A stretch of DNA of 63,713 nt, the filler included, from Kipferlia bialata (Eukaryota): assembly GCA_003568945.1 (NCBI GenBank). It is 3 parts of 3 records of this genome, joined end to end, with 100 filler letters (N's around TTAATTAATTAA, not from the genome) between each part and the next. Parts side by side here need not be neighbours in the genome. Positions count along the whole stretch, not along the records: positions 24,173 to 48,241 come from BDIP01000240.1; 2 more parts are not named here. The stretch is one strand, 5' to 3'. How positions within the stretch are numbered: the first letter of the stretch is position 1; every line of letters starts with the position of its first letter. Positions 177-58,900 of this stretch are shown here, in pieces. Both the position numbers and the translations under genes were made by a program. The notes below the pieces were generated by a model that saw only the letters and a program-made list of their open reading frames with translations, was not told where the DNA came from and searched no databases.

Positions 177-1239
177 CTTGGGTCCACCTCACTGTCCAGG
201 GCTGTGTCCTCTGCCATCTCATGCAGCATGGCATCTGGGGGTGAGGGTATAGAGGTACATACACAAGTATATCCATATACACAAGTATATACATATACAA
301 GTATATATATACACCTTCAGGAATGTATGGTTTGTAAGGTATATATGTCTTGCGTCAACTCATGCAGCATGGCATCTGGGGGTGGGGATAAATGTATATG
401 TATGTATATAATTGGATATTAATTTGTATATATACTCTACGCCTCATGCAGTGGCATCTGGGGTGAAGATAGATGGGTGTATACAGACAGATCTATAGGT
501 CCATATATATAGCCTGAACTTCGTGCAGCATGGCCCCTGGGGATGGATATATACATATGGGTGTAACAAATGTATATATATTACTGCAAATTCTACGTCA
601 AGATAGAAGGAGAGGGACACAATGTATCTCTATGGATGTGTGAGAGAGTATGATAGAGGTGTGTACCTGGTCCAAAGTGATCACACATGCCCCTCATGTA
701 CTCAAAGATGGGCCGGTGGTCACGGGCAAGGTCATGGAACTGAGGTTAGAATGGAGAGAGAGAGAGAGAAAAAGCAAGGGCAATGTCGTGGAACTGAGGG
801 GTAGGAACGATGGAGAGAGAGAGAGAAAGCACAGGAAAACTGCACCCAGGACTCATAGGTCACATGAGAGTAACTGCAGAGGGGATAGAGTGGAGAACAT
901 ATTGGAGAGTGGAGATCAGTGAGTGGACTGACACCTGCTTCCCCTCTGCCATCAGGCCATGTAGAATAGAGTATTGACTGACCACTATATATACATTCTG
1001 GTGACTAATAGTACCAATATGGTACCGATATGATAACGTATGTCTCCCTGCCTCCCCTCTGCCCCCATCAGGCCATGTAAGACACAGAATCATAGCTAAT
1101 CGATAGTATACCTATATATATACAATGCTTACTGATACCTGCCTCCCCTCTGCCCCCATGAGGCCATGGCCCATCAGCCACCGCTTGAAGGCAGCCCACC
1201 TAGGGGGTGAGAGACAGAGATGGATGGTGCATAAATACT

Positions 1240-24171: not shown

Positions 24172-24277
24172 NCCCCCCCAAATACGACGCCCCCCCCCCC
24201 CCCCCCCCCCCCCCTTTGCCGGTCCAGACTACCTTCCATAGTATATACTGTATATATATATATATATATACTCTAAC

Positions 24278-24734
24278 CTTAGTCTTGGCACCCCTCTCCC
24301 CTTGCTGGTACATACTCTGAGGCAGCATCAGCATATATACCTACTGTATACACAATATATATTAATATACTATTACTATGTACTTACCTTAGTCTTGGCC
24401 TCCTTCCCCCCTTGCTGGTGCATACTCTGAGGCAGCATCAGCATCCAACCTGTTGATGACAAAGAACCTATTGATGACAAAGAACGGAGTGACCATCGGG
24501 GCAGAGGGCTCATTTGGAGGTATGTGCATATATATATAGTGTTTAATTACAATACAACATAGGTATATGTGAATCATTTACAACCACTTAACCCCAGTCA
24601 GCACCTCCTACAATGCTGCTGATGACTCTGATGACTCCAACTGGGGCCCATCCCTCTGGTTCTCGCACGAGGGTATGGATATGTGTACATAATCTCTTTA
24701 CTTAGTAATTAGTAGTTTTGTTGCATACATGTGG

Positions 24735-24771
<37 letters not shown>

Positions 24772-26638
24772 ATCTTCGTGTCTACCCTAGTCTTACCCCT
24801 CAGCTGACCCCGCTCTGTTCACACTGGGAGAGGGCACATCGACATCAGGTATATAGCATATTCATTAGAAACATTGGTATATATAAGTATTTATAATGAG
24901 AGAGTATTTGGATACGTGTTGTATGTCTATTCCTTCTATATAGATTGTTCACACTGGCAGAGGGCACATCGACATCAGGTATATATAGCATATTCGTAAC
25001 TAATATTGGAATATATAGATGTATAATGAGAGAATGTGTATAGATACGTGTAGGATGTCTTTTCTATCTATATTGATTGTTCACACTGGCAGAGGGCACA
25101 TCGACATCAGGTATAGGATTCATATGCATATTTCAATATATATGTATATATATATATAGGTTAGAATCATTCGTCTAGCTATATGTCTACTGGCGCCAGG
25201 TTCGTCCTTCTCCTTCAACTGGTAGTACTATGTGTACTACTTGTATCGATATAGCTATATGACTAAACCCAGGCTCTTCCTTCTCCTTCTCCAATGATAT
25301 CTATCTCTCTCTCTCTCTCTCTATATATATATACATATATACCATATGCAGGCAATATGTAACTGACTCTAGGCTCTTCCTTCTCCTTCACCAATGACGA
25401 TGACAGCGAGGGGGTGCACTACACTAACCGGAGATACAGAATGTACGTGCATATATATCTCTCATGCATCTTTGTCCTTTGAAAGTGTTTGAATCCGTCT
25501 TGTGTCATGTTCAAGCGTTCATTACTGTGTCCTTTGTGGTGTCTCTCTCTCTCTCTCTCTCTCTTTCTCTTTCTCTCAATCGGCAGTATCCCTCTTCTGA
25601 CTCTCCCACCTGGTTACAACGGTTTATCGTATGTTTGACATTTCATTGAATGTGTATGTTTCAGAAGTACTATATGCGTCAGTGTGTACCTAACCCTCAG
25701 CCCCCTTCCTTGCAACAACACTGTGTCTGAGACCACCTACCCATACATATATATATATCAGTTATAAGTCTGACCATTAGCCCCCCACCTGGTAACAACA
25801 CTGTCTCTGAGACCACCTACCCTCTGACAGATGTGGGTGGGACAGAGACTATGTACCTGACAGGGAACGGTTGCACAGGTATACCTATATGTATGTATAG
25901 ATTGCTGTTTACTCTTTACAAGTTGACAGATTCATGTACCTGACAGGGAACGGGTGCAGGTTACTATATATGTGTATAGTACAGATACATATTTACAGAG
26001 CTTCTCTCTTGTTGTATCCTCTCTCCCTCACCCTAGGTGTCTATGCCACTGCTGGCGTCGATGTCACTGACCTTGGCACCAGGGTGGGCACAGTGTTTGT
26101 GTCATACCTCGGTGCAACATATGCCACAGACGTTGCATTCGAGATTGGGTCATGCGCTAGGCTGCTAGTTGATGACAGGTGTGTATCTATACATGTATAT
26201 ATCTTAAATTAGTACATATCTTCTCTATACGAGGTTGGGTCCTGCGCCAGACTGATAGTTGACGATAGGTATGCGTGCGTCTGTGTTTATGCCTCCCTAC
26301 TCTCTCTCTAACCCGTAGGCACATCGACTCCGTCATCTCTTTCTCTCTCTATCCCCCTCTCTCTCTCACAATATGTATGTATATCTCTGACCCCTAGAGA
26401 CACCGACTCCGTCATCACTGATATGACCAATACCTCTCTCTCTATATATGTGTATATACAAATATGTATATATGTGTGTAATCCTAACTCACCTCTAGGG
26501 ATATTGACTCCGTCACCGTTGATGTGACCAATGCATCAGTCCCTCTCTCTACCTCTATGTATACAGACACCTACCTTACCCCTAGAGACATCGACTCTGT
26601 CATCATCGATCTCACCATTGCCTCTTATTCTCTCTCAT

Positions 26639-26684
<46 letters not shown>

Positions 26685-28604
26685 CCTCCCTTACCCCTAG
26701 AGACATCGACTCTGTCATCATCGACCTCACCAATGCCTCTGGGGGTGACGCTGCCTCTGCGTCTCTAGTCCTCGAGGCACTCTTTGCACCCAACGTGGCA
26801 CCCCTGCTCGTGGGGGGGACCAGTGTCACAGCCAGGTATTGCTGTTACTGAATGTCATATATGTATGGTTATAGTGTTATACCGACGTGGCACCCCTGCA
26901 AGGGAGAGGGACTAGTGTATCAACTAGGCACGTCCAGGATATATAGATAGTACATGTAGTAGAGTACGTATGGACCTAATACCTAATACCTAATGTGTTG
27001 TGAGAGGGACCACCGTCACAACTACGTATGCTAATGTGAATGGTATATAATCTAGAACGGTGATTGTATTCACTAACTGTAGAAACATCCAGGGTGGCTA
27101 TGACATGTTTAGTATCGTGTATAATGTGTGTGAGTATTTAGTATTCGTGTGTGTGAATATGTATGTTTCTATATCTACTTACCCCAGGAACATCCAGTGT
27201 GGCAATGACCTCTCCTTCACCTTTGGCACAGAGGAGTACCAGAGGTCACTGTACATCAGCAGTGCTGGCGTGTCATCCTGCATGGGTGTGTATCTGTGTG
27301 TATACATAATGTATGAATATACAGAGATATAGTGATTGTGAGCAGTATAGACCACTGCGCCTTAATGTTAATTAACACTCATCTTCGTGTACAGGTTCCT
27401 CTATTTTGCCCAGTTACCTCACCCTCAGTCTCCTCTGACGATGGCTCAGCCCTCTCTCAGAACAATACCCTTGTGTACGGGTCAGGGGACGTTGCATGGT
27501 GAGATAGTGTATATGTATAGTGCATTCATTCTGACGATATCAGCCTCGGACCTCTTTCTACTCGATGAACACTACGATATATGCGTATATACTGGAAGAG
27601 AGTATGTAATTTTATACCTGCCTATCTCAGCAGTGATGTCTCGGACCCCTCCTTCTCTATATACACTACTTTCTCTCTCTATATATATATGCTACTCATT
27701 ACTAGTGTAGATAATAGTCTTATCCTACGTACTTACCCCAGGGGTGATGTCTCGGACCCTTCCAGCTACTCTCTAGGATTCCCCCAGATGCCCAACTCCC
27801 TTGGAAAGGGTAAGTGCTGGAATCAAGTGTTAAGTAATCTTTTCATACATGTTTAGGGTAATGTGTTTACCTCATGGTTGTATTTAATACGTTTACCCCA
27901 GTTGGCGATCTCGACTTCTCGTGGGTGTACGAGTGTATATGTATTTGTATATATATGTAGTGTGTGTATTATGTATATATATATATATAAATACATACAA
28001 ATGTGTCTTATCCCAGTTGGCGATCTCGACTTCTCCTGGGTGTACAGCCGCAAGGAGTTCGAGGAGTTCCCTCTGGTAAGTGGAGACTTTGCATATATTG
28101 TCTCGGTGTACATATTCTTCTAGTACCACCAGATACTCAAAATAATGTATGTTTCAGTGTATTCACATTGGCATGTTCTTTTAACTAGCAATTCTCTATC
28201 CCTCACCCTTAGGTCATGGACTTCCCTGAGATATACCCCTCCGATGACTTCTGGAACACTATCATGACGGAGGACGCCTCCGAAGGTAAGATTATCACTA
28301 CTATAAATACATTTACATACAGCGTATTCTATAATATACCCCTCCGATGACTTCTGGAACATTATCATGACAGACGACGCATCCGAAGGTACAGCATGCG
28401 TAGTATTAGTGTTGTTCATAGTCTATTTGTGTTTGTACTCTGCACTGACTTACGGGACCACTCTGACAAAGGACTCAATGCATCTTAGTGAGTGCTATAT
28501 ATTTGTGTATATGTAAGTGAGTACTGTATATATGTATAATAGTCTCCCCACCCGTAATTAAAATTGTATATACCTATATTGGAGTGTATCTATCTATATC
28601 TATG

Positions 28605-28660
<56 letters not shown>

Positions 28661-30506
28661 TGTGTATGTATGTATGTATTACTCTCCCTCCCACCCCCAG
28701 ATGACATTGAGTATGCCAATGCCCTTGCCGACCTAGCCTCTCTCACTAGGGTGGTCAGAATGCCAACACTAGGGGTCCAGGGATCAGGTACCAAAATGTG
28801 TATGAGTACACTAACTATACCTATACTGTATATGAACGTATGTTTATATTGATATAGTGTGGTCAGAATGCCAACACTCGGGGTCCAGGGGTCAGGTATA
28901 CATATAGATATATATAGACATACATATATTCATTTGGTAATACATGGAATAGCTAGGATTCCACCGGGTCAGGTAGGGACATGTGTGTAAGTTCGACAGT
29001 CTTCATTCGTATATATTGATCTCTAACACCCAGATGGCACTGAGAACCTCATGATGAACAGTGGACTTCTCAACATCCAGATTGGATCAGGTGGGGAAAA
29101 TACAGTGTCTATATACAGTCAAGTAGTCGTGTTCACACCAGGTGAGCTGGAGCTTGGTGCACTGAGCCGGATGGAGCCCAATCAGATCACAATCTTGACC
29201 AGGTATTGATATGGTATATAGTATTAATGAGTATCTATCCAGCCAGATCACAGTGTTGACCAGGTATAAATATGGATTATAGTGGTTTTGACTCTTTCAG
29301 TACCAAGGAGATATATGTTATCTTGGAGTTCATCTCACCCCAGTTCCTCATGTGCCGATGGGTGCTCCGCATTTGTACTGGGCGTTCAGGAGCAGGTAGT
29401 GTTTCATACTATACATGGAAATATACATGTTGTGACTCTTGGTCTGGATTTACTAACATATCCCTCTCTTCCTCTCTCTCTCTCCCTCTCACCCTACAGC
29501 GTCTAGGCCATTGATGTTGTCACCATTGGTGTTATATACTTGTTTAGTTACATATATAGAGCGTGACCTCACCCGTAGCGTCTAGGCCACGTTGTCACCA
29601 TCGGTTTGGATGGCCAGACCACAGCTGGTGCCAAGGCATCTGTCCTGGAAAGTGTTGGATACTCAAAGTCTCTCACCAACGGTACGAGGATTGATGTGTA
29701 AGAGTAGATGCACATATACATGCACATACTATATATATGTCTCATTCACTGGCTCCCTCAATGGTATAGTGAATATATATGGTAAAGTATTTGAGTGTAT
29801 AAGAGTGTAATCTCTATATCTGTTAGAACCAATTGGTGTATTTACATATTTCGCTGACTCCAGGTATGTACACTGTGCCCCGTGCCGTCACCGCTCCCAT
29901 CGCCAACTACGAGGTACAGTTATGTGTATATTGTATATATATGTATTGTAGTTCCTTTGTGGATCGCGTAGCTATTCTGACCCCTAGGCCTTTGCCGACT
30001 GGCAGAGTGAGACCGACACCCCTCCCTCCATGGTTGGATCCACCCCCTCATTCGCACCCAAGGCAGAGAATGGTACGGTCTCTCTCTCTTTTTCTGAGAT
30101 ACTATTTCTAGGTTCATATATGTTCATCTTTATACTAGTTTCGTCTAAAGTCGGCATTCTTCTTCTCTTCTTGTCTATACCCCAACGCGCTCTTTCAATG
30201 TAGTGTGTCCCATTTCCCATATTACCTATGTGTCTTTGTACCTCACCGTATCTTGATTATTTGACTTATTATAGTTTACTCATATCTCCATTAACTATTA
30301 TTTACCGCAGTGATACCACTGTTTGCATCCAGTGTGGCCACTAACCTCGTACTATTTACGTGTATTATACGTATATTATACTTATATATATCTTCTTATT
30401 AGTTATGTATATTATTTGTGTAGTACTCAGATATATATATAGTTATTAACCCCAGTGATACTCAAGAAGGACATCCAGTGTGGGCACTGTCTCTCTCTCT
30501 CTCTCC

Positions 30507-30545
<39 letters not shown>

Positions 30546-32860
30546 GTCTCGGTTCCTATCCTTACCCCAGTGATCCTTAAGAAGGACATCCAGTGTGGCC
30601 CCAGTTGGCCAACCAACGGTGTGGACTCTGATACCCCCAGTGCTGGGGGACAGATACACGCCACGGCAGTGCTGTACAGCGAGGTAACCGTGTTCCTACC
30701 TCTCCCAATACATCATTCTGATTCCATTTTAATACTAGTAGTACTATTGTGAATATCTTGTAAATATTCCTTACTCCAGGCCAGCCTGACCTCCTCCCCC
30801 CTCCCATCCAACATGGTCACTGGGGCAGAGAGGCTCATCCAGAACAGCGGGGAGGCAACTAGTGAGTGTACGTATGTATAGAATGTATAGATAGTATATA
30901 CTGATCATATATACTGGTACTGATGCTGATGATTATCCGGAACAGCGGAGAGGCATCTAGTGAGTGTACGTATGTATGGTGTATATATAGATATATAGTC
31001 ACTGTTACTGATACTGAGAGATCCCTCTTCAGAGTGTACGTCACTATTTCAATTCATCTGTGAGATTATACTCCTGAGCGTAGCTATAATACTCCAGACA
31101 CCAATGCCGTCAGACGCATCTTCTACGGCTTTATAAGTGTATATATATATATATATATAGTTATATACGGATACTATAGATGAGATGTCTACTGATCTTC
31201 AGACACCAATGCCGTCAGACGCATCTTCTACAACGCATATGCATATATATGTATATATAGTAATATACAGATACTAGAAATGAGTTGTCTTATACAATGT
31301 ACAATACAATATCTATAGTATTCTAATCTCCAGACACCAATGCCGTCCGACGCATCTTCTACAACGCAGACCTCGACAGCTCTGTCACTGTAGACACCAC
31401 CTCTGACAGTCTGGGTCTCCCATTCACATGCGAGGTATTACAATTATACCAGTATAGTAATAGTATAATGAATATATATATATATATATACATATATATG
31501 CACTGTCACTATAGACACCACCTCTGACAGTCTGGGTCTCCCATTCACTTGCGAGGTTTTATAATAGTTCTATTGTAGTAACAGTATAATGAATATATAT
31601 ATATATACTGTCACTGTAGACACCACCTCTGACAGTCTGGGTCTCCCATTCACTTGCGAGGTAATGCAATGACACATTTTTCAATTTTCATACTACCCTA
31701 CACAGTAACATAGTATTTTCCAGACATGGTAGGCATTTATATGCGAAATAGATCCAAATCATTGCCATTATGCTTCTCACCTCCTTAAACGCCCCAATAC
31801 TTCTCCTCTCACCCCTCCAGCCCGCTGAGGGCGAGACCTCCTACACCGTCAACCTGTGGAGCTGCAGCCCTGGCGAGGGTCTGCGTCTGATGGGCCCCAG
31901 GGCCACCTGTGACTACGAGCCCCAGTCGGTGTGTGCCAACATAGTGCCCACAAAGATGGAGGTATTGTGGCACCTCTCTTGTCTCTGTACTCCAGGATCT
32001 CATCGCTATTTCAACTCTTACTGTAGGTACTCCTCCTGCCTCCTTGCCAATATCAATGTCCTCTCCCTCTCTTCTTATTCTTCTCTCTCTCTCCATCTAT
32101 ATGTTAATATTAATAGTATGTTAATATATTCTTACTGTAGGTCTTCTCCTCCTACCTCCTTGCCAATGTCAGTGTCCTCTATACTCTCTCCTTCTATCTC
32201 TATCTATATGTATATATATCCTCTTATCTCAGGTATATATTCATCCTACCTCCTTGCCAATGTCAATGTCCTCTCTCTCTCTCTCTCTCGGTCTATCTCT
32301 CTGCCCCCTTTAACAGTAGGTCTACTCTTCCTACCTCCTTGCCAACCTCAATGTCCTGGTAGGCATGGCAGCTGTTGCCCTCCTTGGCCTCACCCTCCTG
32401 TCCATGCTGGTGATGGGTGTTACCAAGGCACTCAGGGTATGTAGATGTACTTAGCATATATATTATGTATTATATTGTATTCACCCTGCTGTCCATGCTG
32501 GTGATGGGGGTCACAAAGGCTCTCAGGGTAAGTATATATACTTTCCATTTGTATAATTGTATTGTTGTATACATTTACCCTCCTGTCCATGCTGGCCATG
32601 GGTGTCACCAAGGCACTTAAGGTACCTAGATATATACACACNNNNNNNNNNNNNNNNNNNNNNNNNNNNNNNNNNNNNNNNNAGATATATACACACATGT
32701 ATATAGTGTATCCTCTCTTGTGATATACCCATGCTGGTGATGGGGTTCACCAAGGCACTCAGGGTACGGATATGTATGATAGCATATAATTACTATTATA
32801 TATGTTGTATTCACTTGTGTTATCCATGATAGTGATGGGGGTCAGCAAGGCATTCAGAGC
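24278..32860 (+). repeat. Array of intronic exon-end echo copies (more than 30) in the S41-like gene
   Basis: Examples: donor echoes 24945-24980 and 25077-25112; four acceptor echoes 26315-26620; acceptor echoes 31098 and 31203; donor echoes 31503-31555 and 31607-31660; four donor echoes 32480-32860. Confidence 0.92.
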
Positions 32861-32980
32861 TCGGGAAGATAATTGTATATGTATATATATTTACTCCTGA
32901 TTGTTTTACTAACCCATTAGCGCAAGCGCTCCTGGAATGACGCAGGAAAGGTGGCTCTGGACCTGAGCATCGTTGTATAG
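24393..32980 (+). CDS. Type I membrane protein with a peptidase S41-like domain; more than 20 exons, 5'-truncated
   Basis: IDSVIIDLTNASGG (S41 IIDLRxNxGG motif) and EPNQITILTSSSCADGCSAF...RLGHVVTIG (compare the eukaryotic S41 motif IvILTDG.CASTC..F). C-terminal TM LNVLVGMAAVALLGLTLLSMLVMGV, then RKRSW...IVV*. Confidence 0.7.
32642..32682. other. Assembly gap (41 N)
   Basis: N run inside an echo-containing intron. Confidence 0.98.
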
Positions 32981-33315
32981 ATAGAGAGGGGGAGAGAGAG
33001 AGAGAGAGAGAGAGAGATTCCCATACTTCCGAATGAATCTCGAGTATTCTCCATGAACATTGGTTTTCCGGACGTCTCCCCTAGAGGTGTCAGAAAGATG
33101 ATTTTTGTGTCGTTGCATCTGCATTATGTATGTGTAATAGACTGTTTAGTGTGATCTCTTAAGCTTAGTTTCCTGACCTGATATAGTGATGAGAGATACA
33201 GATTTGAGCTATCAGGTCTTTGAGTGAGGGTATCTCTAGTCCCTCCCAATTGCGGGTTCGTAGTGCTGTTTGCAACACCACCTCATCCTACTCATGCCCG
33301 TCAGGCACACATACT

Positions 33316-35228
33316 ATGCAGCAACCTGTGCCAGTGATGTACACCACTCCCCTCCCTACCCAGAGACCCCCTCCTAAGGAGATGTGGATAGTACGTATCA
33401 CACATACACGCCTATCTATATATATCACAACACCAAGTGATACCCGCAAACATGCACTGATTATCAGACATTTAGCGATATCTATATATGGAGTAGAACA
33501 CATACTGCTGTGTTTTGAACTGACTCTTGTAGGTCAATGTCATCTGGTTCTTCAGTATATAGTTGAATATAGTAATGTATATAGTTACATACACGCCCAT
33601 GAATACATATGTTAATATACTCATTGTATTCTCATTGTATTGACTCCTTCAGGCCTATGTCATCTGGTTCCTCTTTGGCACACCTTAAGTAGATGACGTA
33701 CATATCTTCTATTACTGTCACAACACAGCACACATGTATTGACTTCCAGGCCTATGTCATCTGGTTCTTCTTTGGCACATTTGGCTTCCACAGACACTAC
33801 ATTGCATGGCCCGGTGTGTCTGTACCTGGCACTACACTGACTGTCCTCGCTGTAGCCAGCTGTATCCTCAAGTATGGTGCGTAAGAACATTAGTTTTAGA
33901 ATTGTCAATACTATATTAGTCTAAGATTATATTATTATATTATAATGACTATTTGTTTGTTATTCTGTGGCCAGTTGCATCCTCAAGTATGGTACGGTGC
34001 AGAGACATTCTTAGTTGTCTTCTCTAGGCACTCACCTACACTACATAAGGTGTGTCCTCAAGTATGGTGCGTAATAATTCATACACTCTATAGGAGACTC
34101 CTATTATGAGTCAACTTGCTATTAGCAAGTTGCTATACACTATTAGTGGTTGAATCTGTGGGTAGTTGTCTCCTCAAGTATTGTGCCTTGTGTACACAGT
34201 TAGGTGGTGTATATCAGTATACGTATACTATACGACGAACACATTGCGTTGGGTGATGCTCAATTACGGTGCGTATTACGCAGCGTAATTGTGATATGTT
34301 ATCTCTTCTTGTGTGACCCTCTGCTGCACTATACCTGGCTGGAAACTCTAGTGAGGAGGCTAATAGACAGTAGTTTGCCTTTTACTTCGTTAAGATAATC
34401 GTGCCTCACTCACTGTCAGTCTTCTACCGAATCCGACTGGCTCTGTACCTTGGTACAGGAATCCAGAGCGCCATAGGTAACACTAAGTTCTCCACACATA
34501 CATATGGCTGGATGCACGTATGTCACATACAGTTTATGTTGTCAATGACAATACACAGACAGGCTCTTCCTCAGCAAAGACAAACATCATCGCTATTCAC
34601 TCTAGGCATATGGTGGCTCATTGATGCCTGTCTCATTCCAACACTCGTGAACGCCGCCAACTTACAGGTAATATCACTCAGTGTTCAGACCAAATAGAAT
34701 TTAATTGAATAGTAGAATTACGTATAGATTGTTGTTTCCCACAACAAGAACCTGAGTGTGACATGTATATGGGAACCATTGGGTCTTTGATAGATAGTAT
34801 CTTCTTTTGCCTAGGAAAGATCTTGACCCCCAGACACAGGGACCTCCAGTCAAGACCGCCATTGTCGGTGGTGTTGCAACGGTAAGTGCGGGATCATTCG
34901 TATGACAATATATGTGACTTACCCCAAGGACTACCCCTCCTACCCACCCACCATGGGACAGCAGCCCCCACGCAACGCTGTTCTCAACTCTCAGCCCATG
35001 CCGCAGCCCCAGCCACCTGCTAACCCATATGCCCCTGCCACCGGACCTAACCCCAATGTTACTGCTAACCCATACCCTAGTGCACAGCCCAATCACTACC
35101 ACCCTCAACAAGAGCAGTACCCTGCTACTGAGGGACCGTTTGTGCAGCCTGTCACAGGATATGCCCCTGCTCCTATGCCTGTGGTACCAACATATGACGC
35201 TCCACCTCCAGCCAATGGTATGCAGTAG
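33316..35228 (+). CDS. TM2-domain membrane protein with a Pro/Tyr-rich C-terminal tail
   Basis: KEMWI|AYVIWFFFGTFGFHRHY (TM2 motif AY.LW.F.G.FG.HRFY) and GIWWLIDACLIPTLV. Last exon is DYPSYPP...NGMQ*. Confidence 0.82.
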
Positions 35229-35650
35229 AGAGTAGTGGTGGAATAGATAATTGGAACAACAGTGTGAGTCACTGTCAGTGACTCATCTCCAGATAGAGTA
35301 GGATGTCAATGTCTGGGTTCTACGATCCAGGCTCATCGCCACAATCTCTAATTATACCTGCAGGCCTGAGCCATGTTGGTTGGTTCTAAGTCTTAGTCCA
35401 GACCTTCTAGTCAACCATATAGGATTCTTGTGTTTCTACCTGTGCTGTAAAGTAGACGTAAGACGCTGTAGAGAAGAAATCTTCAAGAAACAAGGTACCG
35501 TTCCAGTGCATGCTGGAGTGAAGACCTCATACAAGGTCCCTAAGCAGTAGAGCAGCGAACCTGACTGTCTCTATAGTGGTGCGCGCCTGACTCCCCTAAC
35601 CGTCTTTTGAAGGCGTGTGACTTCTGGATTGCAGGCGCAGAGGAGTAACC

Positions 35651-38600
35651 ATGTTGGTAAATAGGGTGAGTACAGAAGCTCCACACTACTACACCGCTCC
35701 TTACCTGTATGGATACCCTCTACAGTCTTCATAGGATACTTCTGTTCAAGGCTTTGGCACAACAGATTCACTCACACATAGCCGATCCTCACAGCTGCAA
35801 TCGTGCATCTTGTGTGCACTGTGCTGATAGTTCCGTACTACCTGTCCTGTTCCTCCACCCTGGATGACTGTTGTGTACTCACTCTACACAAGGCACTTCA
35901 CTGGCTGGTTCGTCTGTCCCTCTCTCGCAGTGCGGTCTGGCACGGAAGAGCAGTCGTATTCTGGAGGAGGTACATCCTCCCCTTAGAGATGCTGGGCTCG
36001 CTCAGTGGAGTGTGTGGTCTGCTACTGTGTATACTTGGCGTGAGGGACTGGTCTACAGCTACTAACGTAGAGGCTCTACTCTGTGGGGTACCACTACTGG
36101 TATCATCTGTAGCACTTCCACTGCTAGCCAAGCCTGTCCATCCCAAGTGTCACTCTCACCTATGTGAGACATGTGGGACTCTACACGGAGCTGCAATACT
36201 GTACCCAATGGTTCTGTCTTACATTGTATCCATTGTCTCCATCACCCTTCCTGGCGACTCGCTACCCCACTTACCCCTCTGGTGTATGTTGGCCAATATG
36301 GTTATGGTATGGACTGCGCCCGTAGCACTCTACCAGCCAGCTCTGAAAGTAGCAAGGTTGCTTACACACGATGCAACTGCCGACTCTCCAAAGGAGTCAC
36401 GGTCTCCCTATAGCGAGGTGGTACTTCAGTGTGTGAGGATTCTGAGACTCTCCTGCTACACAAACCATGAAGTAGCAAGGGCCTCACTTGTGGCAGATAT
36501 ACACCAGAGACTCCTCTCTGCTGCAGAAGCGGACCCCAGTGGCAGACTTATGTTCGTTCTGTCCAACGGTTTCAGCGATCAGAGTGTTTCTGTCCAGGAG
36601 GGGAGGCTCAGACACACTGCTTGTTTGGTTCTGACTGAAGTAGAGACAGACTCACGGGAGTCACGCTCACACACTACACATGACTGTGTTGCTATCCGAA
36701 GAGTCTCAGTCGCTCACATATGCATCCTGTCTCTCCTATTGAGGGTTCACAACAAGTGGGGCTTTGGCGTAAACTACATTGTCCACAGTCTCTCTTCCAT
36801 CCTCTGGCCATCCCTGCATTCATGTATGTCTAGTCAGTGGGCCAGTGTAGCTACTAGTGAGACTAGTGTCCCAGACTCACGAGTAACTATTGGAGCAGAC
36901 GAGCTACTCCGTGTTATACAGGTAGCAATCACATTCTCTTTAGTACTATTCTGATTCTCTCTGCTGCTGAAATGACTTACTTTGATACTCTGTGCCAACT
37001 TCAAGTACTCGTTGGTTACCATATATACAAATATCAATCCATATTGTATGTATTTCGTTTCTTCCCTAATTGAACAGGAAATGACAGCAGATCCAACGTT
37101 TTTAGTGATGCACAGCAAGCTACACGCACTAGGGAAGTCGGTAAGGCGAGGCACACTGTACAGTTTGGAGCATCACGATGGGGAGTACCAGGGATTCCCT
37201 GATGCCATAACAGGGCAGCACAGACATCCGGACCTACTCGATACCAGCAAGGTAATGAGACTCAATGTCTGTCAATAATTACATGTTATATACAATTACC
37301 TAACAGTAGGAGAACATCGACAGAGCAATCTTGGCATCAGCCACTTCTGCTGACATGATATCCACTGGAACCAGCACCCTGTCTCTACACGATGCCCTTG
37401 ACTCAGAGATCAGTACCTCAGGGTCATTCTCCTGGTCACCGTCCTCAGAGATTCTCCTCTCTCCTGACCCAACCATGGAGTGGAAGGTTCCCTACCCGAG
37501 ATGCAACATACCAGAAGGGTACCACGACCATCACATGTCAATGGATCAGAGACCGGATGGGCCTATAGTGACAGCCAGACATAAGGTGCCCTGGGACAAT
37601 GCAAGGCCGCTCCGTGGGAGCTATATGATGGCATATCGTAAAGGTAAGAACACTGAGATAACTGTGGGAGTATGTCTCTTTCTGTATAGTTCCTTACCTA
37701 TACAGATGTGCGAGTGCATTTCTATAGTGCACGTTAGACACCAAGTCTGACCCATCTAGATGCTCGCAACAGCGCATGTATCACTGTGTACCGTTCATGG
37801 TTGGATCTGCTTGGGGTGCATGGCCACCTGAAAGAGATCAATGAACTCAGTGCATTCCCAAAGAACGTGCACCCGGAGGACCTCGCAGAGGTATTGACAA
37901 CAAATTCAGTTTAAGCTGACTGCCATACAATGATTATGGCTATATGGATACTGGTGCTATATGCAGAGGTAACACTCACTGTGGAGGCTACTTGGGTAGT
38001 AAGGGAATGTCTAATAGTTCACTTGTATCCCACGCCACTGCATTTCATAGGATTACAAACAACGCTCGCAGAATCCAACCTCAGACATATGCAGCTCTAG
38101 AGAGCGCTGAGAAGAATGGTATCTGGCTTGCACACTACAGACAGCTGGTACCGACAACATACCCATATGGGAAGTATGTCCACATGCGCTCAATTGGGTA
38201 CGTAGTGTGATACTACAGAGCCATGATCTACACTGAAGGTTACATCGTGTCATCTTAGTAATATAATGAGACTCTTACATCAGGCATGTAGTGCGCTACT
38301 CTACCAGTGGACGGGCGTTGTTGCTGGCGGGTTACGCTGAGAAGATGCCACACCCAGATGACTTCACCGTGACATCTGGGTCATCTTGCAGAGACTTTGG
38401 ATCAATCAGGTATATATGCATTATACAGTAGTTTACTACTCTGTTGTCCGGGTCCACCATGTAATTGTATTGTACGACATGATGGAGTGCGGTGTTGTAA
38501 CTACACAACATCTTACCCCCAGTGAGTGCATCAATGCCTCCTGGACAAGTGAGCAATCAGCAGAGACCCACCAGGAAGTGGACTCTGTCTTCTCAACAGC

Positions 38601-41184
38601 CGTGCTACAGAGAATGATGCGTCCTGCGTCGTGTCCATACTCCCCATCTCACAATGCTCTAGACCCAGATGCACATCGTAAGACATTCATGAGCATGTGG
38701 GCTCTGGAGGAGCGGGAGAAGCCACCTAGGCTGCCAGCGGACATGTTTAGGAGGTCTCCAGTTGTAACGTGTGACCATTGCGTTGACCAGCTGCTGATCA
38801 AGTACCACAAAATGTCAGGTAGGTTGTATGCTACATTATACCTGTATGTTCCAATATCCATAATGTACATCTCTCACCTATATGTATAGATTACTAATGA
38901 CAGTGAACAAGAAGATACGAGCCTCGCTTGTGAACGCTGCAACGAATGAGAACTTCGATGCAGCTCTGTTTGACAAGCAGCTAGGAGGCTTTGGATTCGG
39001 GTGAGACTCAATGATACACTCCACCACATTAAGCGAATCACGTTTAGCTAGTCAACGACTACTGCAAAGTGAAGAATTGACTATACGCACATCTAACGTC
39101 AGATGGTTGTATATCTTTGTCCACATCCAGCACTATGTGTTGAACCCTGGCCCAATGCGAGTGTCACTAAGGGACTTGGTTAGGCTGTTGTTCACTATTT
39201 ACAGGTAAGTGATTTATAGTTGTATTGAAATTTTTATCTCTTTCTTTTATTTTCATTCACTGGTAACACAACTTGGAAATTGAACCACGGTCTCTGAGTG
39301 TCTCTCAGTAAGACTCTATCTCTGTCAACACAACTGCGATTCGACGCCTGTGATTGAGGCACCTTCCGTACCCCTTACCCTAGTCTGCACCGCAACAACC
39401 CCTTTCATAACGCCATTCACTCCTTGGACACGCTCCAGATATCTCTTGTGATGATGTACAGTATAGAGAAGTGTCCGGGAGGCACTGTGTGGATGCCGTC
39501 AGTGCTACGGGCACTCACTATGCTATCAGCAGTGTGTCTCAACATAGACCATCCTGGTCTGTCTAAGGTATCATACACTGGTACTAATATTGATCACGAC
39601 ACTGATACTATTGATGATCCCGATCCTGATCCTGATACTGGTTCTGAATCAGAACTTCTGAGCCTGACGTTGATACAGTCTCTATCAACTTGATACTGAC
39701 ACTGATGCAAGGACTACCTAGTGGGTACTGATAACCCTGTGGCCACAGCCTATGGCAGAGAACGTCCTATCCAAATGCAGGTCAGTCTTCACAGAGGATG
39801 CATACTTCACTGCGGAAGACTCTTTGCCCATGAACGGTCTCAACATGTACCTCATATATGTGATCATGTCTCACTCTAGGCATCAACCCTCGCTGCAGCT
39901 GTGTTCCGCGGCTGCAACATACTCCCACGGTCAACTGTGGAGATCAACCTCGTCAGAGACCTGATTGTGTCTACGAGCTGTCATAGTGCCAGGGACACTC
40001 TCTTCCAGCTACGTAGACTCACTGCTCTGCCATATACTCCAGCTCCGTGGAAGGAGAATGAGCTAGTCTCTGCTCTGGTAGATAGAGAGAATGGGCTAGG
40101 TATACTATACATATTCATATGTATGTGTATTTGCACTATGTAATCTATATTCTGTAACAGCACTGACTACAGGACATGTGCAGTACTTGACTGCAAGATC
40201 CGTGCTCATGGTGGCATCTATGGGCTGTATGGCAAGAGAGTGGCCCATAGCCGAGGTAGGTGATCTTCGCAGTAAAGCAAGCGAGATTCTTCTTTAGTCT
40301 CTAAATCCATTGCTTGTGCTTCCTCTAACCACTGGTGTTTGGCATGCAAAGACTGAGATATATTCATTGCTGGAACTAACCACAGGTCTTTGGCAGACTG
40401 AGGATGAGGGAGGAGTATGCCTCTGGTGCACATGAGGCAGATGCAGGGCTGATAGTGCCTCCATGTAGGTACGAGACCCAACGCCTCTCTCTACTAGAGT
40501 TGCAGGAGTGTATACGAGCCTTACTCCAAGTATGAACTTTCGCTGTAACCTTCAGGATGCTGCAGATGAACCACAGCACCGAGCTCGATGCAGCCATGTA
40601 CCAGGCAGAGTATGTGAGGGAGAAGGTATATATATATGGTATAAATACATTATAGAAAGTAACACATATTGATATATAATACAATATAATATACAATAAT
40701 GTGTATAATAGTATATAGTAATGTATAATGATGTATGCCATGTACCAGGCAGAGTACATGAGGGAGAAGGTGCTGCCCCATGTGAATATAGTATATATAG
40801 TATATATAGTATATATATATTATATAGTGAACATGAGGGAGAAGGTGCTGATACTATAATACATATTGATATATAATACATTATAGTATTTTATAATGTA
40901 TATAATATATAATGTATATGAGGGAGAAGGTGCCCCATGTCAAGAAATACACCCACCACATATATATAGTATATATATGCAGCGCAAATTTATTAATAAT
41001 ATACAATATATATAGATTTCATTAATAGGAAATATATATTAATACGAAGGTGCTGCCCCATGTCAAGACATACACCCACCACATGCGGAGACTGGGAATT
41101 AGGGGTGCAGAGCTGGTGGGGGAGAGGCTGACAGAGAGGGCAGTTAGGAACAGGGAGAGGTGGTTGCATTGTAGTAGCCAATAG
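35651..41184 (+). CDS. Multi-TM protein with a C-terminal class I cyclic-nucleotide PDE domain, likely catalytically dead; start approximate
   Basis: N-terminal TM ORF 35803-36954. Later motifs NNPFHNAIHSLDTLQ, SAVCLNIDHPG, LVRDLIVSTS, VLMVASMGCMAREW, EEYASGAHEADAGL and RNRERW follow PDEase_I order. Confidence 0.75.
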
Positions 41185-41681
41185 TAGCAGGCCTTTCTTC
41201 GGCTCAGCGGTTAACACCACAGCATCAAGGAGGGTGTGAGATATAGACACCCTATCTCACTATATCTCACTACATCATATATGGTCCACGTCAAACTATA
41301 CAGAGTGATACCCGAAGTAATTGAATAATACATGCGACACAGTGTGAGATTGTACGGTGCATATGGGACCTAGTCATTCTCAGCAAGCATTATAAGACAC
41401 CGTCACAGTGTTAGGTTGCAATGAGAGAGACAGAGGCAAGTAATGACATTGTCACATCGGGTTTCACCAAACATTGTCACTGTGTCACAGTGACAATGTT
41501 GTCGTGGAAACAAAAAAATTACAGACCCTTTAGTCAGCTCCCTGCCTGTTTGGTGGCCAGGAAGCCTCTCTCCTCCAAAGGCCTCTGTTAGAGACAGAGT
41601 GACCTCATCAGCTTCATACCCACACCAATAAGGAGCCCTGCACTACTTCTATCTAGCTAGTGCAGCCGTTATTGTATCTAG

Positions 41682-41835
41682 ATGGCTGTGACCAGTCTCG
41701 ATGTCATTCAGACATGCCTGCCATTCTCAATCATAGCATCAGGTATATATATAGTGTATATTCACATACCGTATCAGGTAGCCTTTCTGTCTACACTTAG
41801 AATACTTGGTGCACTGGTAGGATCCCGTTCGCTAC

Positions 41836-41881
<46 letters not shown>

Positions 41882-44800
41882 TTCTCTCTCTCTCTCCCCC
41901 CCCCCTCTCCTCCTCTTATCCCCCTAGGTACCCCAATCCCCCCAAGCCAGGCTCGATATGCTGTTTGTGCCAAAGAGACTTCACAGTCAACATCCTTGAC
42001 GACCTGCCCCACCAGATACTGAAGTGCAGTTGTGGGGCGTCTGCCCACAGGTCTTGTGGCGTGGATGTCCAGAGAGGTACAATGCTGGTGTGTCTCTCTT
42101 CCATTAGCTCCTCTGTCTCACCGCAGGTCCCAGGCTGTTGAACTGGAGATGTCCGTCGTGCAGGAAGTGTGAGGTTAGTATATTGTTGTCAATTAGTCCT
42201 CTTGTGTCTACTGATACACACTCTTCCTGACCCCCAGTGCTGTGGGTGCCGGGACTCAGACTCCATCACCTGGAACAGCCACTACACACACTGCAACACA
42301 TGCTGGAAGATGCTGGTGGCAGGTGGGGATGGCATGAGTGTGGATACGGGGCTGAACCTATTAGATCTCATTGATTCAGTCAACGATATATATATACCCG
42401 TGTTGCTGTCCCTCCATTCTGCCTAACCTCCAGGGAACTACTGCCCCAGTTGCATGGTCCCCATCAAGTATGTCATAGATAGTATGTCATAGATAGTATG
42501 TCACACGCTGTATGTGTCGGTGCATGTGTATGTGCTCATGTCGTTTGACTGCAGTCTATATGCTTGCGTTGTTTCTTTCTCTCTCCAAATATATTTATCT
42601 CCCGCTCACCCCTCTCAGGTCTGGTGCCCTGGATGTATCCTGCTGTGTGCGTTGCCCTGTCTGTACTCAGTGCCACCACAGACAGTGTCTGAAGCAGGTA
42701 CCCGGCTCAATATCTGTAGCTGTATATACTGGTACCGCTTCTGTTCGAGTATGAGCCTTACCATGTATCTGACCCACCCCCAGCACACCCGACAGGGGGA
42801 CTACGTGTCTCTCTTCCTGGCTGCCTCTACCAAGTACACCCGACCTGTCGAGACCGAGGACCAGATGGACAGCCTCCCAGACCACGCTGCGTGTCCGTAC
42901 TGTGCCGGACTCTTGACACAAGCAGCCCTGCCATTCACAAGGAGGTACGGGTGTGTGTGTGATATTGGATTGGCCACATGCATACCCCCTCTGTTCTGAC
43001 CCCAGGTCCATGGCTGCCCAGAAGGTCACAGCAAGGCGGGCTCTGTGGGCCAAGAGGCTGGAGAGGAGGGGTAGTAGGGGACAGGGGAAGGAGAAGAAGG
43101 GGAGCGTGGCCACTATGGCCCCACCCATTGTGTCTGAGGGACATGCTGTAAAGGGGTCTGGCCGGATGAAGGTGGATGTGGGCATGCCCCCACAGGGCAC
43201 AGGGGCCAGTCACCTCAAGGGGACACGCCCTGACGATGTCAGCCGGGTTGTGCGCTCTGTACCTCCCTCTCAGTCTGCCAAGGTATCCATGTCCATGCCC
43301 CCTAGTGTTATGGAGGCGTCTGTGTCTGAGGCGTCTGTGTCTGAGGAGGTGTCCATCAGTGACACCGAGTCCAGCAGTATAGGGGACCTACTACTCGACG
43401 GTCTGCAGGCCCTGTCCCACAGGGGTCAGAGGTTGGAGAGGGCTAGTGGTACCCAGGGTAGGGAGGGGGGTGGGATGCTTGGGGAGCCGTCTCCCACGCC
43501 TAGGAAGAGACAGCCCATCGTGTCTGAGACCAGTGCCTGGGAGCAGGAGATGGAGGAGGGGGAGAGGGAGAGGGAGAGGGAGCTTGAGTTGGACGCAGAG
43601 AGAGAGCTGAGGCAAGAGGAGGAGAGGCTGAGACAGCTGCGGGAGGAGAGAGAGAGAAAGGAGAAGGAGAGAGTTCTACGACTGGAGAGAGAGAGGGCGG
43701 CGAAGGCGGAGAGGGAGAGGAAGGCTAAGGAAGAGAAGGAGCGAAAGGAGAAGGAGGATATTGAGAGGAGGGCGAGAGAGGAGAGGGAGAGGAAGGAGAG
43801 GGAGCGTCTGAGAATCATCCGACTGGAGAGAGAGAAGAAGGCTAAAGAGGAGAGAGAGAGACGAGAGGCAGAGAGACAGGCTGTGTTTGCGGCTGAGAAT
43901 GCCAAGAGAAAGGAGAGGCAGCGCCTTGCCAGACTGAGGGAGATAGAGGAGGAGAGAGAGAAGGAGCGGAAGGCTGCGACCATTCTAGCCAGCCCTGTGG
44001 TCGTGAAGATAGAAGGGGAGGCAGAGGGTGCAGAGGAGTCAGAGAGTAGTGTCAGTGACTCCTCGAGTGACTCCAGTTCCTACACATACACCTATGCCTC
44101 AGACACGTCTGGGGGACAGGACCCAGAGGCCCAGGCCAGAGTCCAGGCCCAGGGGCAGGCCGCCCTTCAGCCACCCCTGCCTGGGGTGGTTCCGGGGGGT
44201 GCCTCTCTCTCTCTCCCTCCCGTGTCGTATGCAGCCACCAAGGTCGGTGCCCCCCTCCCCCCCTGCCCCCCTGGGGTGGATACCACCTGCTACAGCACCC
44301 TCGCAGCCCATGTCGCCCAGATCGACAGGTATGGATAGGGATAGTGTTTATCAGATAGCTGTGGTTATGGGTATATAGTTCACTATTGGTCGCCCCAGAT
44401 CATTTATCGTCATTCACATATACTTAGGTATGGAACACCACCTTTTACATGTATGTAATGTGCATGGTTGAGATCCTCACATACGATACCAATGCAGCAT
44501 CTATTACCCGTGTCTCCCTCTCCCTCTCCCCCCAGGCTGTGTCAGGTGGAGAGGTCCCTTGCCAGACTCAGGGTGCATCTGGCCAGGTACATACCTGCTC
44601 AGTGTTGCCTTAATTGGGTCAACATTTTATTCTCTGTGATATGTACTCTCTCTCTCTCTACATATATATATATACACTCACCCGCACAGGTGTCTGCTGC
44701 AGGCCGTCCCGGCCAGCGAGCCCCTCACCCATGCTCTGTCTGTCCTGCCTGCCATCCGGACAGACACTGCGACGGTGACTAGGCAGGCAGAGGCTCTCTC

Positions 44801-47799: not shown

Positions 47800-48135
47800 G
47801 TCACCGCCGGTGCCGACAGTGACATGCAGAGCATCCCAGAGGGGCTGGACCAGAGATACATCGGTATGTATAGAAATTATGATATGTATATGTATAACAC
47901 CATTGCATATACAAATACTAATATATGATATGTATATAGTTATTTGTGTATGTATACTCATACCAGTTGTGCACCAGAAGATGTGTTCATTGGTGTATAT
48001 TTACACTCACATATATATATGTATATATGTATATACATACCCTATACATACTCTAACCCCAGTTGTGCACCAGAAGATGCGTCTGGCTGTGTTCATTGCA
48101 TCTGTGCAGACAGCACTGGACCAGATCAGAGACAA
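47800..48135 (+). CDS. Two internal exons of a hypothetical gene (fragment)
   Basis: VTAGADSDMQSIPEGLDQRYI|VVHQKMRLAVFIASVQTALDQIRDK with canonical splice sites, and echoes at about 47963 and 48193. Confidence 0.55.
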
Positions 48136-48241
48136 GGTATATTATATATATATATATATACTGTATATATGTATAGTGTAGTTGTATATATATGCATCGG
48201 TGCAGACAGCACTGGACCAGATCAGAGACAAGGTATATTAT

Positions 48242-55954: not shown

Positions 55955-58900
55955 TCCGCCTATATTTCGACTCACACTAATTAATATCTAATGTATATTT
56001 AGGTCTCTAATGTCAGGCCAAGTTGGTGGCACCTCTCTCTCTGGCACCAAGACAGAGGGAGGCGACGCTCCCCTCAGCCTGCCCTTGGTACCCAACCGGT
56101 ATACCAGGATGAGCCAGCCACTACACGAGGCAGCGGCCAAGGTGAGACACTATATGTATGAATATATGTATTCACATGAATTGTATTCGCTGATCTCTCC
56201 TCTATCGCTTCTTACCCTCAGGCTGATTCGACCACCCTCTCCGATCTCCTGTCCAAGGGATACAACCCATTCGCCAGGTGAGTGACATCCGAATCTCAGG
56301 AATACGTGTGGGTATAATTGTGACTGATACCCTCCGTCTCCACCTCTCTCTCTCTCTCTATCTCCCTTACCCTTAGGGACTCCTCCAACCGCACTGCCCT
56401 CCACTGTCTACTGCAGTCCAAGCTAGGGGGCAGTGACTCTGCCATGGCCTCTGCCCTACTAGATGAGATGGCTAGGGTGGCAGACAGACTGTTCGCAGGG
56501 TCTAAGGTGGGGAACTATGCCAAGATGTATAAGTATTCTTTGGCGCGCACAACTCCTTTCCTCACCCCAGGTCGAGGATGATGGCTGGCGGGACCTTGCC
56601 CCTGTATCTCTCCTCAAGACCCAGCCCCCCCTCCCCTCCCACTCTTCCTGTGGCATGAGGGGTGTGGGAGGGGTCGGGGTGGTGGCTGGGATGACTCTAG
56701 ATGAGCCTAACGGGGCTGTGGGTCTAGGCGGGTTCTCGAAGCTGGTACCAGTCCCCCCTAGTGTCGATACCACTTCACATGGCACCCAGATGGACATTGA
56801 TATGGGTATGGAGACCGGAGGCAAGAAGCACACCTTCGCGGACCTCCATGCCACTACATACAACCAGTCTGGTAGTATGGCTTCCCTTCCTGTCTCTGGT
56901 ATGGTCTCTGCCATGCCAGGTCCCCCCATGGGTACTCTCTCCCATACTGCCATGGGGGGTGCTTCCCACACTGCTATGGGAGGTGGCATGGGTGGAGTGG
57001 GTCAGATGCAGCAGTCCCTAGGAGTGCCTAGACAGACCTTCCCCCAGTATCAGCAGTCCCTCCCTATGCACCCCATGGGTCAGAGGGTGGGCATGGGTAT
57101 GGGAGGGCCGATGCAGACCCACATGGGTGACATGGGTGATGGATCTCTCAGTGGCCCTATGGGTGGGGTGGCTAGTGGGGCTGTGGGCCTCCCTGTGACC
57201 CCTGTCCCTGCCTCACTTGTCAGCCGCATCATAGACGCTCTGCCGCTCAGGTACCAATGACTACTCTCTTCACATATCTCGTTGCGTAAACTCTCTCTCA
57301 CCCCTCAGGGATTCTCTCGCTGTGTGTGGGGTGGACAAGGCTCTACAGAAGGTGTCAACTGAGTCTCTGGCCAGGCGTGATGTCCTAGACTTCAGCGACA
57401 CACCTCATGTCTCCAGTGCATCCATACTCAACCTGTGCTCCATGTGCCCACAGTGCAGGGTGGTGGTGCTGGATGGCTGTGTCAACCTGGATGACAGCAC
57501 GGCGCTGAAGGTCATAAGGTGGGGGAGAGGCACTCGCTACTTGTGTTCCACACTCTGGATATACATACATATTACTTAACCTATTGTTATATATACTTTG
57601 ATTGATATATATACTTTCATCGTCTGACCCCAGGCTGTTGGAGACTGTGCAGGAGATATCCCTCTGCCACACCCCAGTGACACCCTCTCTCATCAGACCC
57701 CTTGTGGAGGAGCTCACAAAGAGGGTGCGCGTCACGCCTGTGCGTAGACTGGCCATAGTGGGTACGTGCATGTTAACATATATATATCATATGTACTGGA
57801 TATGTGTACTTACCGCCAGGCACTGAGCTGGTCCACCCCCTCATGTTCACTGCCCTTCGCGCCTCGCCCGTCCTCCCCCTCCTTGACTGTCTAGACATTG
57901 AGTTTGTGGGGTGGGGGGGTAGCATGCACGACGAGCGTGGGCCTTCCTACAACGCCTCTGTCTCTGTGGCCAAGGAGGGAGAGATAGAGAGAGCCATGGC
58001 GAGGGAGCGCCGCAGCTGCATCCCCTTCCCTGCCCCTGCCTCTATCGATAGATGCAGGGCCACATTCCATCCAGGTTGGTATCAGTATACATATATATAT
58101 TGATGTATATTCTTGTTAGTATCAGTATGCGTATGAGTAGGAGTGTGATATATACCTCTTCCTGGTATATTGGATCCTCACCTCCAGTCCCTCTCAGTGC
58201 CAACTCCCTCCGGTCCCCATCTGGCAAGGACACCCAGTCCCCCACCACCCCCACCCCGCTACCACCGCAGCCAGATGCACATGCATACCCAAAGTTCGGA
58301 CAGCTCTTTAGCAGGTATGAATCAAAGTGCTGACCAAATCTACCTTTCTGATTTATGAGACACGTATGTAGATGCGTCTCACCCTCTCAGATACGCTGGG
58401 TGCCGTGATGTGGCAGATCTCGAGGACAGGATAGGGTGCACTCAGACTGTGTCTGGGGCTGACCACTCTGCCTCTCTCTCCCTGCCTCTCCACACCCTGC
58501 CACCCCATATACGTGTGGATAGCACTATGGGGCAGACAGGGGCTAGCCCCTCCACCTCTGGCCTCTCTGACCAGGGCACTGTGGAGTCACTGGCACAGGC
58601 CATGCTGAGGTGGGTGGAGACATCAATAGTGAAGGGAGCAGAGTACTTGGTAGAGTATATCAGTGCAGTAGTTCATTTATACTGGCACAGGCCATGCTGA
58701 GGTGGGTAGAGACACCAGTAGTGTAAGGGATTTGGTAATATGCGTACGGTAGTATGTGTATTCTCTGATCAATGACTCACTCTGTAGGACTGTCCCCTCC
58801 TGCCGCAAGTGCAGCCTGGGTGTGCTTCTGCCCTCCTCCGCCCTGGCCCAGAGGTCCCACCCCGTCACTGCTGCTGTGCTGGCAGACACTGTACACCCAG

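What the first reader, a model, noticed from the sequence alone, without database searches (positions are those of the whole stretch)
33529..34275. Polarised decay of echoes around one TM2 exon
Acceptor echoes at about 33529 (poor) and 33650 (good) precede the exon at 33750. Donor echoes at 33970 (AGC>AGT and TGT>TGC, both synonymous), about 34050, 34165 and 34262 become shorter and more degraded with distance. A similar gradient appears at 25196-25372, 26315-26701 and 30308-30571. This suggests repeated copying from the working boundary, pushing older copies into the intron and leaving an ordered record of earlier exon states.
Basis: partly seen in the sequence, partly recalled or inferred. 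Interest (0 to 1): 0.72.

Follow-up and report, generated by a model that had tools for sequence, protein, structure and literature searches.

The report
Exon-edge copies stacked inside protist introns
In this single-celled organism the edges of an exon, splice signals included, sit as several altered copies inside the neighbouring introns and are skipped in the one RNA assembly seen; they likely arose by repeated local duplications of about 100 bases, a known kind of repeat, but the nearest copies look as if they may have coded for protein until recently.

Summary
The echoes are real: two acceptor and four donor copies flank exon 33750-33876 of a TM2-domain gene (protein named Kipferlia bialata KIPB_001637). 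An RNA contig splices past all six. The pattern is wider: 54 echoes versus about 0.8 expected, in 24 of 149 modelled introns, spaced 54-160 nt. They are 'mirage'-type tandem duplications of exon-intron boundaries, described in lancelets and human F7; this scan noted the kind before in a sea urchin and a bristle worm. The gradient is only statistical. The nearest copy is usually best (21 vs 6 pairs, p=0.009), but only 2 of 5 larger clusters are ordered, 11 of 21 neighbours share a breakpoint, and the TM2 donor array looks like a 190-bp block duplication. So it is not an ordered archive. Unexpected: nearest copies differ from the exon with dN/dS about 0.28, below the 0.5 floor for a dead copy (p about 0.01, but 0.11-0.16 in two variants), while their intron spacers are mostly unalignable. 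That hints at capture from other alleles. No report for a protist was found in seven searches.

The parts
33316..33390 (+). TM2 gene coding exon 1 (annotated protein starts at the second ATG, 33337)
33519..33553 (+). far acceptor echo: branch/AG ending 33532 plus 21 nt of exon 2 head, 2 differences
   Evidence: skipped by RNA joint 33390>33750
33639..33682 (+). near acceptor echo: branch/AG ending 33652 plus 30 nt of exon 2 head, 1 difference
   Evidence: skipped
33750..33876 (+). working exon 2 (most of the Pfam TM2 match)
   Evidence: RNA contig lies on it with 0 other letters; Pfam PF05154 E=3e-8 on P0001
33965..33993 (+). donor echo 1: 27 nt exon tail plus GT, 3 synonymous differences
34048..34075 (+). 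donor echo 2: 19 nt plus GT, identical to the working donor over -12..+7; likely start of a 190-bp block copy
34156..34184 (+). donor echo 3: 27 nt plus GT, shares breakpoint and two synonymous states with echo 1
34257..34275 (+). donor echo 4: about 12 nt plus GT, weakest copy
34420..35228 (+). TM2 exons 3-6 (34420-34476, 34606-34667, 34834-34881, 34929-35228), no echoes found
24283..32980 (+). gene B: 25 modelled exons, open 723-codon frame when all echoes are skipped; 16 of 24 introns carry echoes
   Evidence: three paralogues align to the model; no RNA laid here
177..1199 (-). minus-strand gene with three echo clusters (donor 1047, 934; acceptor 793; acceptor 375, 457, 536)
47963..48241 (+). 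acceptor echo at 47967 and a donor-side copy running to the sequence gap
58681..58730 (+). single recent donor echo, 21 of 21 exon bases identical, intron flank alike

Best explanation
The echoes are silent copies of exon-intron boundaries, likely made by head-to-tail duplications of about 100 bases with one end in the exon and the other in the adjoining intron. Shown: copies abut the boundary on the intron side, are spaced 54-160 nt, mostly keep GT or AG, cannot form in-frame cassette exons, and are skipped in the TM2 transcript. Inferred: with exons and introns near 85 nt, almost every harmless duplication of this size spans exactly one boundary, so no targeting is needed. A copy survives because the spliceosome takes the site nearest the exon body (first donor, last acceptor). 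Inferred: arrays grow both by fresh copying from the working edge and by unequal exchange or block duplication among copies, with conversion refreshing the exon-like part. This gives a rough, not ordered, age gradient and explains most long introns here.
For: 54 echoes vs 0.8 expected. Wrong-polarity controls: 0 of 97 and 3 of 98 trials, against 16 of 149 on each correct side. RNA joints 33390>33750 and 33876>34420 skip all six TM2 copies. The echo-skipping model contains the deposited protein letter for letter. 0 of 49 echoes have an in-frame partner site at the level of real sites; 6 of 8 indels shift frame. Geometry: random units of these sizes span one boundary 49% vs wholly intronic 3% in two echo-free genes, and 61% vs 16% in gene B cores. 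Whole units alike where recent, e.g. spacers with 78 matches and 17 mismatches, z=12. Shared breakpoints 11 of 21. Echo introns median 358 nt (n=24) vs 85 (n=125); 18 of 26 introns >=230 nt and 0 of 98 under 140 nt carry echoes.
Against: Only 11 of 28 nearest copies have an intron flank resembling the working flank, whereas 97-100% should if flanks had diverged only 11-20%. Conversion or an older split must be added. Nearest-copy dN/dS of 0.28 is below the 0.5 that a dead copy beside a constrained exon allows. No clear microhomology rule was seen at junctions by eye. The floor of about 54 nt on unit size and the clustering in one gene (16 of 24 vs 8 of 125 introns) are unexplained. RNA evidence is two low-depth contigs on one gene, from a run only guessed to be RNA.
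Confidence: 0.8

Rival explanations
1. Add-on to the best explanation: many copies were captured from a different allele by unequal exchange between homologues in a very diverse, recombining population, so exon and echo both coded for protein during most of their divergence.
For: Nearest copies: 47 synonymous vs 40 nonsynonymous differences, dN/dS 0.28, cluster bootstrap 0.17-0.42. A rule-based pipeline without hand edits gives the same share, p=0.008 against a simulated dead copy. Inner private changes 20 of 39 synonymous; amino-acid changes more conservative than random (n=51, p about 0.01); no stop among 72 changed codons. Spacers diverged more than exon parts while splice signals persist. 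Echo residue matches a paralogue in 6 of 41 vs 3.2 expected, p=0.085. Fornicates lack NHEJ and Rad51A and keep two Dmc1 genes (PMC8516963 passages); Dmc1 mismatch tolerance is in PMC8682777 (listing only).
Against: All 146 distinct differences: 46% synonymous vs a 41% bound, p=0.15. Unedited gapped alignments 0.35, p=0.11; 16 vs 12 clusters above the line. Without three clusters 0.36, p=0.16; TM2 alone 6 vs 8, not significant. Outside gene B 0.42, p=0.50; kappa 4 gives p=0.049. No allele data at all; ploidy and sex are unknown here.
Confidence: 0.3
2. Add-on: the nearest copy is kept coding-compatible because array collapse or conversion often puts it back in the working position, so damaging changes in it are selected against (a spare boundary).
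For: Inner private changes synonymous-rich, outer ones neutral. Synonymous share falls from the splice site outward: 22.5 of 36, 16.5 of 28, 8 of 23; rho -0.21, p=0.056. Selection acting on unexpressed cassettes has precedent in Borrelia vls, though there it favours diversity (PMC3828179 abstract).
Against: Three nearest copies carry frameshifts within about 10 nt of the splice site and three have lost GT/AG, where this selection should be strongest. Far-end mismatches may be run-on noise.
Confidence: 0.15
3. Strict stack: each new copy comes from the working boundary and pushes older ones outward, so rank equals age.
For: Length and divergence trends; shared-by-all differences 10 of 14 synonymous; three nested shared changes in the 26315-26701 cluster.
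Against: 2 of 5 larger clusters monotone; shared breakpoints; non-nested sharing such as ranks 2+4 and 1+3+4; TM2 block copy; private-change pattern reversed.
Confidence: 0.1
4. The echoes are alternative or cassette exons in use.
For: 44 of 49 keep GT/AG (the scan gave a bonus for this) and 16 of 49 score as well as the working site; synonymous bias.
Against: 0 of 49 cassette-capable; frameshifts; nearest copies cover at most 75% of their exon; skipped in RNA, though contigs drop rare forms.
Confidence: 0.04
5. Assembly artefact (alleles laid in tandem) or pieces pasted in from paralogues.
For: Short-read-style scaffold with gaps; gene B has paralogues.
Against: Longest exact repeat in 33020-40770 is 21 nt. 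Run X1 holds all 940 sampled 31-mers of 33020-41800, but it may be the source and none of its contigs was laid. Up to five distinct states per cluster. Paralogues are only 29-54% identical in protein; no TM2 paralogue found (weak).
Confidence: 0.05

Closest known systems
Lancelet 'mirages' (Adh3, globins BflGb6/BflGb9, troponin C, PGBD5); PMC3087553 and PMC3902484, passages read
   Same: [quoted passage not shown]
   Different: Here in a metamonad protist, in 24 of 149 introns. Spacers are mostly unalignable while exon parts stay 70-100% alike (BflGb6 units are 81-100% alike). A distance gradient and a synonymous excess are not mentioned in the passages read. Copy-number polymorphism is untested.
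Human F7 IVS7 37-bp VNTR; PMC1557585, abstract read
   Same: First unit spans the exon-intron border; identical downstream donors stay silent. TM2 donor echo 2 equals the working donor over -12..+7 and is skipped.
   Different: F7 covers donors only. Here the last acceptor is also preferred, in an organism with short introns and 87 of 174 spliceosomal proteins (PMC6679479 passages).
Intron gain by tandem duplication of an AG|GT proto-splice site; PMC2891723, passages read
   Same: Local duplication produces intron sequence from exon sequence.
   Different: TM2 copies duplicate an existing boundary and lengthen an intron without creating one. Only the 40556-41184 cluster fits intron birth.
Heterogeneous duplications (mosquito ace-1); PMC6121789, passages read
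   Same: Unequal exchange in a heterozygote would place two already diverged alleles in tandem.
   Different: Those are whole, expressed, selected gene copies; here silent 20-55 nt fragments, and allelic origin is only inferred.

Membership tests
mirage repeats | tandem copies spanning an exon-intron boundary | tested here: met
mirage repeats | both donor and acceptor boundaries duplicated | tested here: met
   22 donor and 27 acceptor echoes among the 49 scored
mirage repeats | unit length within 10-160 bp | tested here: met
   54 spacings, 54-160 nt, median 99.5
mirage repeats | many units keep AG/GT | tested here: met
   44 of 49 (detection bonus inflates this)
mirage repeats | regular splicing undisturbed | tested here: met
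   main TM2 transcript only; rare forms and gene B not seen
mirage repeats | minisatellite-like identity across the whole unit | tested here: inconclusive
   met for recent units (TRF finds 4 such arrays in gene B); flanks alike in only 15 of 49; TM2 arrays not found by TRF
mirage repeats | copy-number polymorphism or somatic instability | not testable with these tools
   one sample; no DNA contig laid
F7-type silent pseudo-site array | most upstream donor used despite an identical downstream one | tested here: met
cassette or mutually exclusive exons | copy has both splice sites in frame | tested here: not met
   0 of 49
intron gain by proto-splice-site duplication | copies carry the spliced exon-exon junction | tested here: not met
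   TM2 copies carry exon plus intron flank; met only at 40556-41184
heterogeneous (allele-capturing) duplication | copies diverged as two functional alleles | tested here: inconclusive
   dN/dS 0.20-0.36 by method, p 0.001-0.16
heterogeneous (allele-capturing) duplication | copy variants found as single-copy alleles in the population | not testable with these tools
   no second isolate; metagenome scan found 0 matches

The most novel reading that the evidence does not exclude
The intronic echoes are captured alleles: unequal exchange between homologues deposits exon edges from other haplotypes into the intron, so one genome archives its population's coding diversity and gives indirect evidence of recombination in a free-living fornicate.
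Probability: 0.3. Interest if true: 0.75.

Novelty: new variant of a known kind. Interest (0 to 1): 0.5.

Why it matters
It extends mirage-type boundary duplication from animals to a deep-branching protist and shows how its long introns grow: most introns over 230 nt here are stacks of such units. It is a natural splice-choice test. A reduced spliceosome working on short introns ignores an identical nearer donor and two upstream acceptors, which fits exon-side recognition or decay of other forms better than nearest-pair intron definition (inference). It warns that gene predictors take echoes for exons, as my own predictor did. If the synonymous excess holds genome-wide, diversity and recombination in this lineage become measurable from a single assembly.

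Tried and rejected
No whole genome is held, so the genome-wide regression and trees with orthologues could not be run. No RNA holder was listed on record; run X2 is RNA only by guess, though its GT..AG joints behave like it. It covered only the TM2 gene; lack of cover elsewhere is no evidence. Run X1 laid 0 contigs. No reads were laid on gene B or on the 40556-41184 cluster, so their splicing is open. A metagenome scan for a TM2 exon word gave 0 matches. Word-index searches with a gene B exon and with P0003 found no further relatives. Pfam gave no match above its cut-off for 6 gene B exons. Codon preference has no direction between exon and echo (20 vs 21). Erosion of far ends was not seen. 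Exon-part divergence and flank identity are uncorrelated (rho -0.19, p=0.2). Copies are too short for trees, so site tables were used. The original mirage paper (Canestro 2002) is not held and is known only through citing passages. No supplement of any paper was read; those of PMC5874029 or PMC3087553 could bear on novelty.

Full report
Gene and organism. Exon 33750-33876 encodes most of a TM2 domain. Its translation is 100% identical to a 215-aa protein that NCBI names Kipferlia bialata KIPB_001637, and my six-exon model contains that protein letter for letter. The DNA is thus from that free-living fornicate or a very close relative. Contigs of run X2 (RNA by guess) join 33390>33750, 33876>34420, 34476>34606 and 34881>34929, all GT..AG, with no other letters. 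The main transcript therefore uses the last of three acceptors and the first of five donors. Contigs cannot show rare forms.

Observation. All six echoes are present. To judge chance I built 21 gene models with 170 exons and 149 introns: four set by hand from the predictor's output, three edited, the rest as predicted, some introns doubtful. Left out: two small predicted models, the last exon of the first gene and two exons of the last. An anchored scan found 54 echoes at score >=24 against about 0.8 from foreign exons, in 30 clusters and 24 introns of 7 genes. Wrong-polarity controls were at chance. One 25-exon gene upstream (gene B) has echoes in 16 of 24 introns; its frame is open for 723 codons when all are skipped, and three paralogues align to that model.

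Anatomy. A unit is 15-55 nt of exon edge, the splice signal, and a 35-124 nt AT-rich spacer; spacing is 54-160 nt. Echo introns have a median of 358 nt against 85. Of 49 echoes scored (the five of the 40556-41184 cluster set aside), 44 keep GT/AG, 16 score as well as the working site, and none has an in-frame partner site of normal strength. Six of 8 indels shift frame.

Gradient. In 16 multi-copy clusters length falls with rank (20 vs 3 pairs, p=0.001) and divergence rises (22 vs 10, p=0.04; common intervals 17 vs 9, p=0.11). On a fixed 16-nt window in 14 clusters it is 21 vs 6, p=0.009, with the nearest better than the farthest in 9, worse in 1, tied in 4. But only 2 of 5 clusters with three or more copies are monotone, and 11 of 21 neighbours share the far breakpoint. 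On the TM2 donor side two repeats lie 190 and 191 nt apart. Echo 2 is closer to the working donor than echo 1, echoes 1 and 3 share a breakpoint and two synonymous states, and spacers 0 and 2 are weakly alike (54 matches, z=4.0) while spacers 1 and 3 are not. A block duplication of the working edge plus echo 1 explains most of this. Position is a rough guide to age, not an ordered record.

Coding signature. A dead copy beside a fully constrained exon should give dN/dS of at least 0.5 (inference: synonymous sites change on both lines, the others on one). The 30 nearest copies give 47 synonymous and 40 nonsynonymous differences, 0.28 (bootstrap 0.17-0.42; p=0.014, or 0.049 at kappa 4), after I re-anchored or trimmed ten of the 54 alignments by hand. 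A gap-free rule-based pipeline applied alike to data and simulation gives p=0.008; trimming ends gives 0.20. Against: unedited gapped alignments 0.35, p=0.11, and 16 vs 12 clusters by sign; 0.36, p=0.16 without three clusters; TM2 alone not significant; outside gene B 0.42; all 146 differences pooled p=0.15. Inner private changes are 20 of 39 synonymous, outer 10 of 37; amino-acid changes are more conservative than random. Only 11 of 28 nearest flanks resemble the working flank, against 97-100% expected at 11-20% divergence. Spacer > synonymous > nonsynonymous is the order expected of two working alleles. Conversion from the exon would explain the spacers but not the ratio (inference). I put allele capture at 0.3 and selection through collapse-back at 0.15. 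The lack of NHEJ and Rad51A in fornicates (PMC8516963 passages) makes homology-driven, mismatch-tolerant repair plausible but proves nothing here.

Comparison. The closest known kind is the lancelet mirage (PMC3087553, PMC3902484; passages), a lead from e1-7908603. Five of seven features are met, one is inconclusive and one untestable. Human F7 IVS7 (abstract) matches the silent donors. PMC2891723 (passages) covers intron gain by duplication; PMC2812944 (outline and section 9) covers minisatellites altering human gene structure. Searches listed no report of this pattern in K. bialata or another protist; the main text of PMC5874029 has 0 occurrences of 'duplicat'. The library lacks most subscription papers.

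Verdict. Real, window-wide but patchy, a degenerate variant of a known repeat kind. The sub-0.5 ratio is the surprising, still fragile part. Interest 0.5.

Noticed in passing
window 40556-41184 (+): Three intronic copies carry exon tail joined directly to the next exon's head, the spliced junction, shifting from tail-rich to head-rich. This fits an intron born by duplication of an AG|GT site, or an RNA-templated copy. The final acceptor lacks the usual branch motif and no RNA was laid.
   Followed up: partly
window 97-59 (-): A 39-nt copy of the tail of exon 234-177 has its own AG and GT and is in frame; possibly an echo turned exon. Left out of the counts.
   Followed up: no
window 24393-32980 (+): Gene B: 723+ codons, hydrophobic C-terminal stretch, no Pfam family above cut-off in 6 exons tested; three K. 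bialata paralogues (P0003, P0007, P0008) at 29-54% identity. Its introns are TATA-rich (45 per kb).
   Followed up: partly
window 24447-24485 (+): 18-bp in-frame tandem duplication wholly inside an exon (six residues repeated).
   Followed up: no
window 42467-42503 (+): 14-bp unit, 2.6 copies, starting at a predicted donor: a very short boundary repeat below the echo scan's reach.
   Followed up: no
window 1329-1469, 10491-10606, 46802-47075: A 41-bp intronic repeat (3.5 copies), a 57-bp pair, and a 21-bp by 13 array inside a minus-strand reading frame.
   Followed up: no
window 24073-24172 and 48242-48322: N runs with an all-frame stop spacer, suggesting separate pieces joined end to end; echoes occur in all three pieces.
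   Followed up: no
window 34926-34928 (+): AAG acceptor of a 47-nt intron, supported by an RNA joint.
   Followed up: yes
window 33020-33315 (+): The TM2 transcript contig extends at least 296 nt upstream of the first ATG, close to gene B's predicted stop at 32980.
   Followed up: no
window 10874-11605 (+): Derlin (Pfam DER1, E=6e-16) gene.
   Followed up: partly
window 63341-63332 (-): Short acceptor-like echo upstream of exon 63256; not included in the counts.
   Followed up: no
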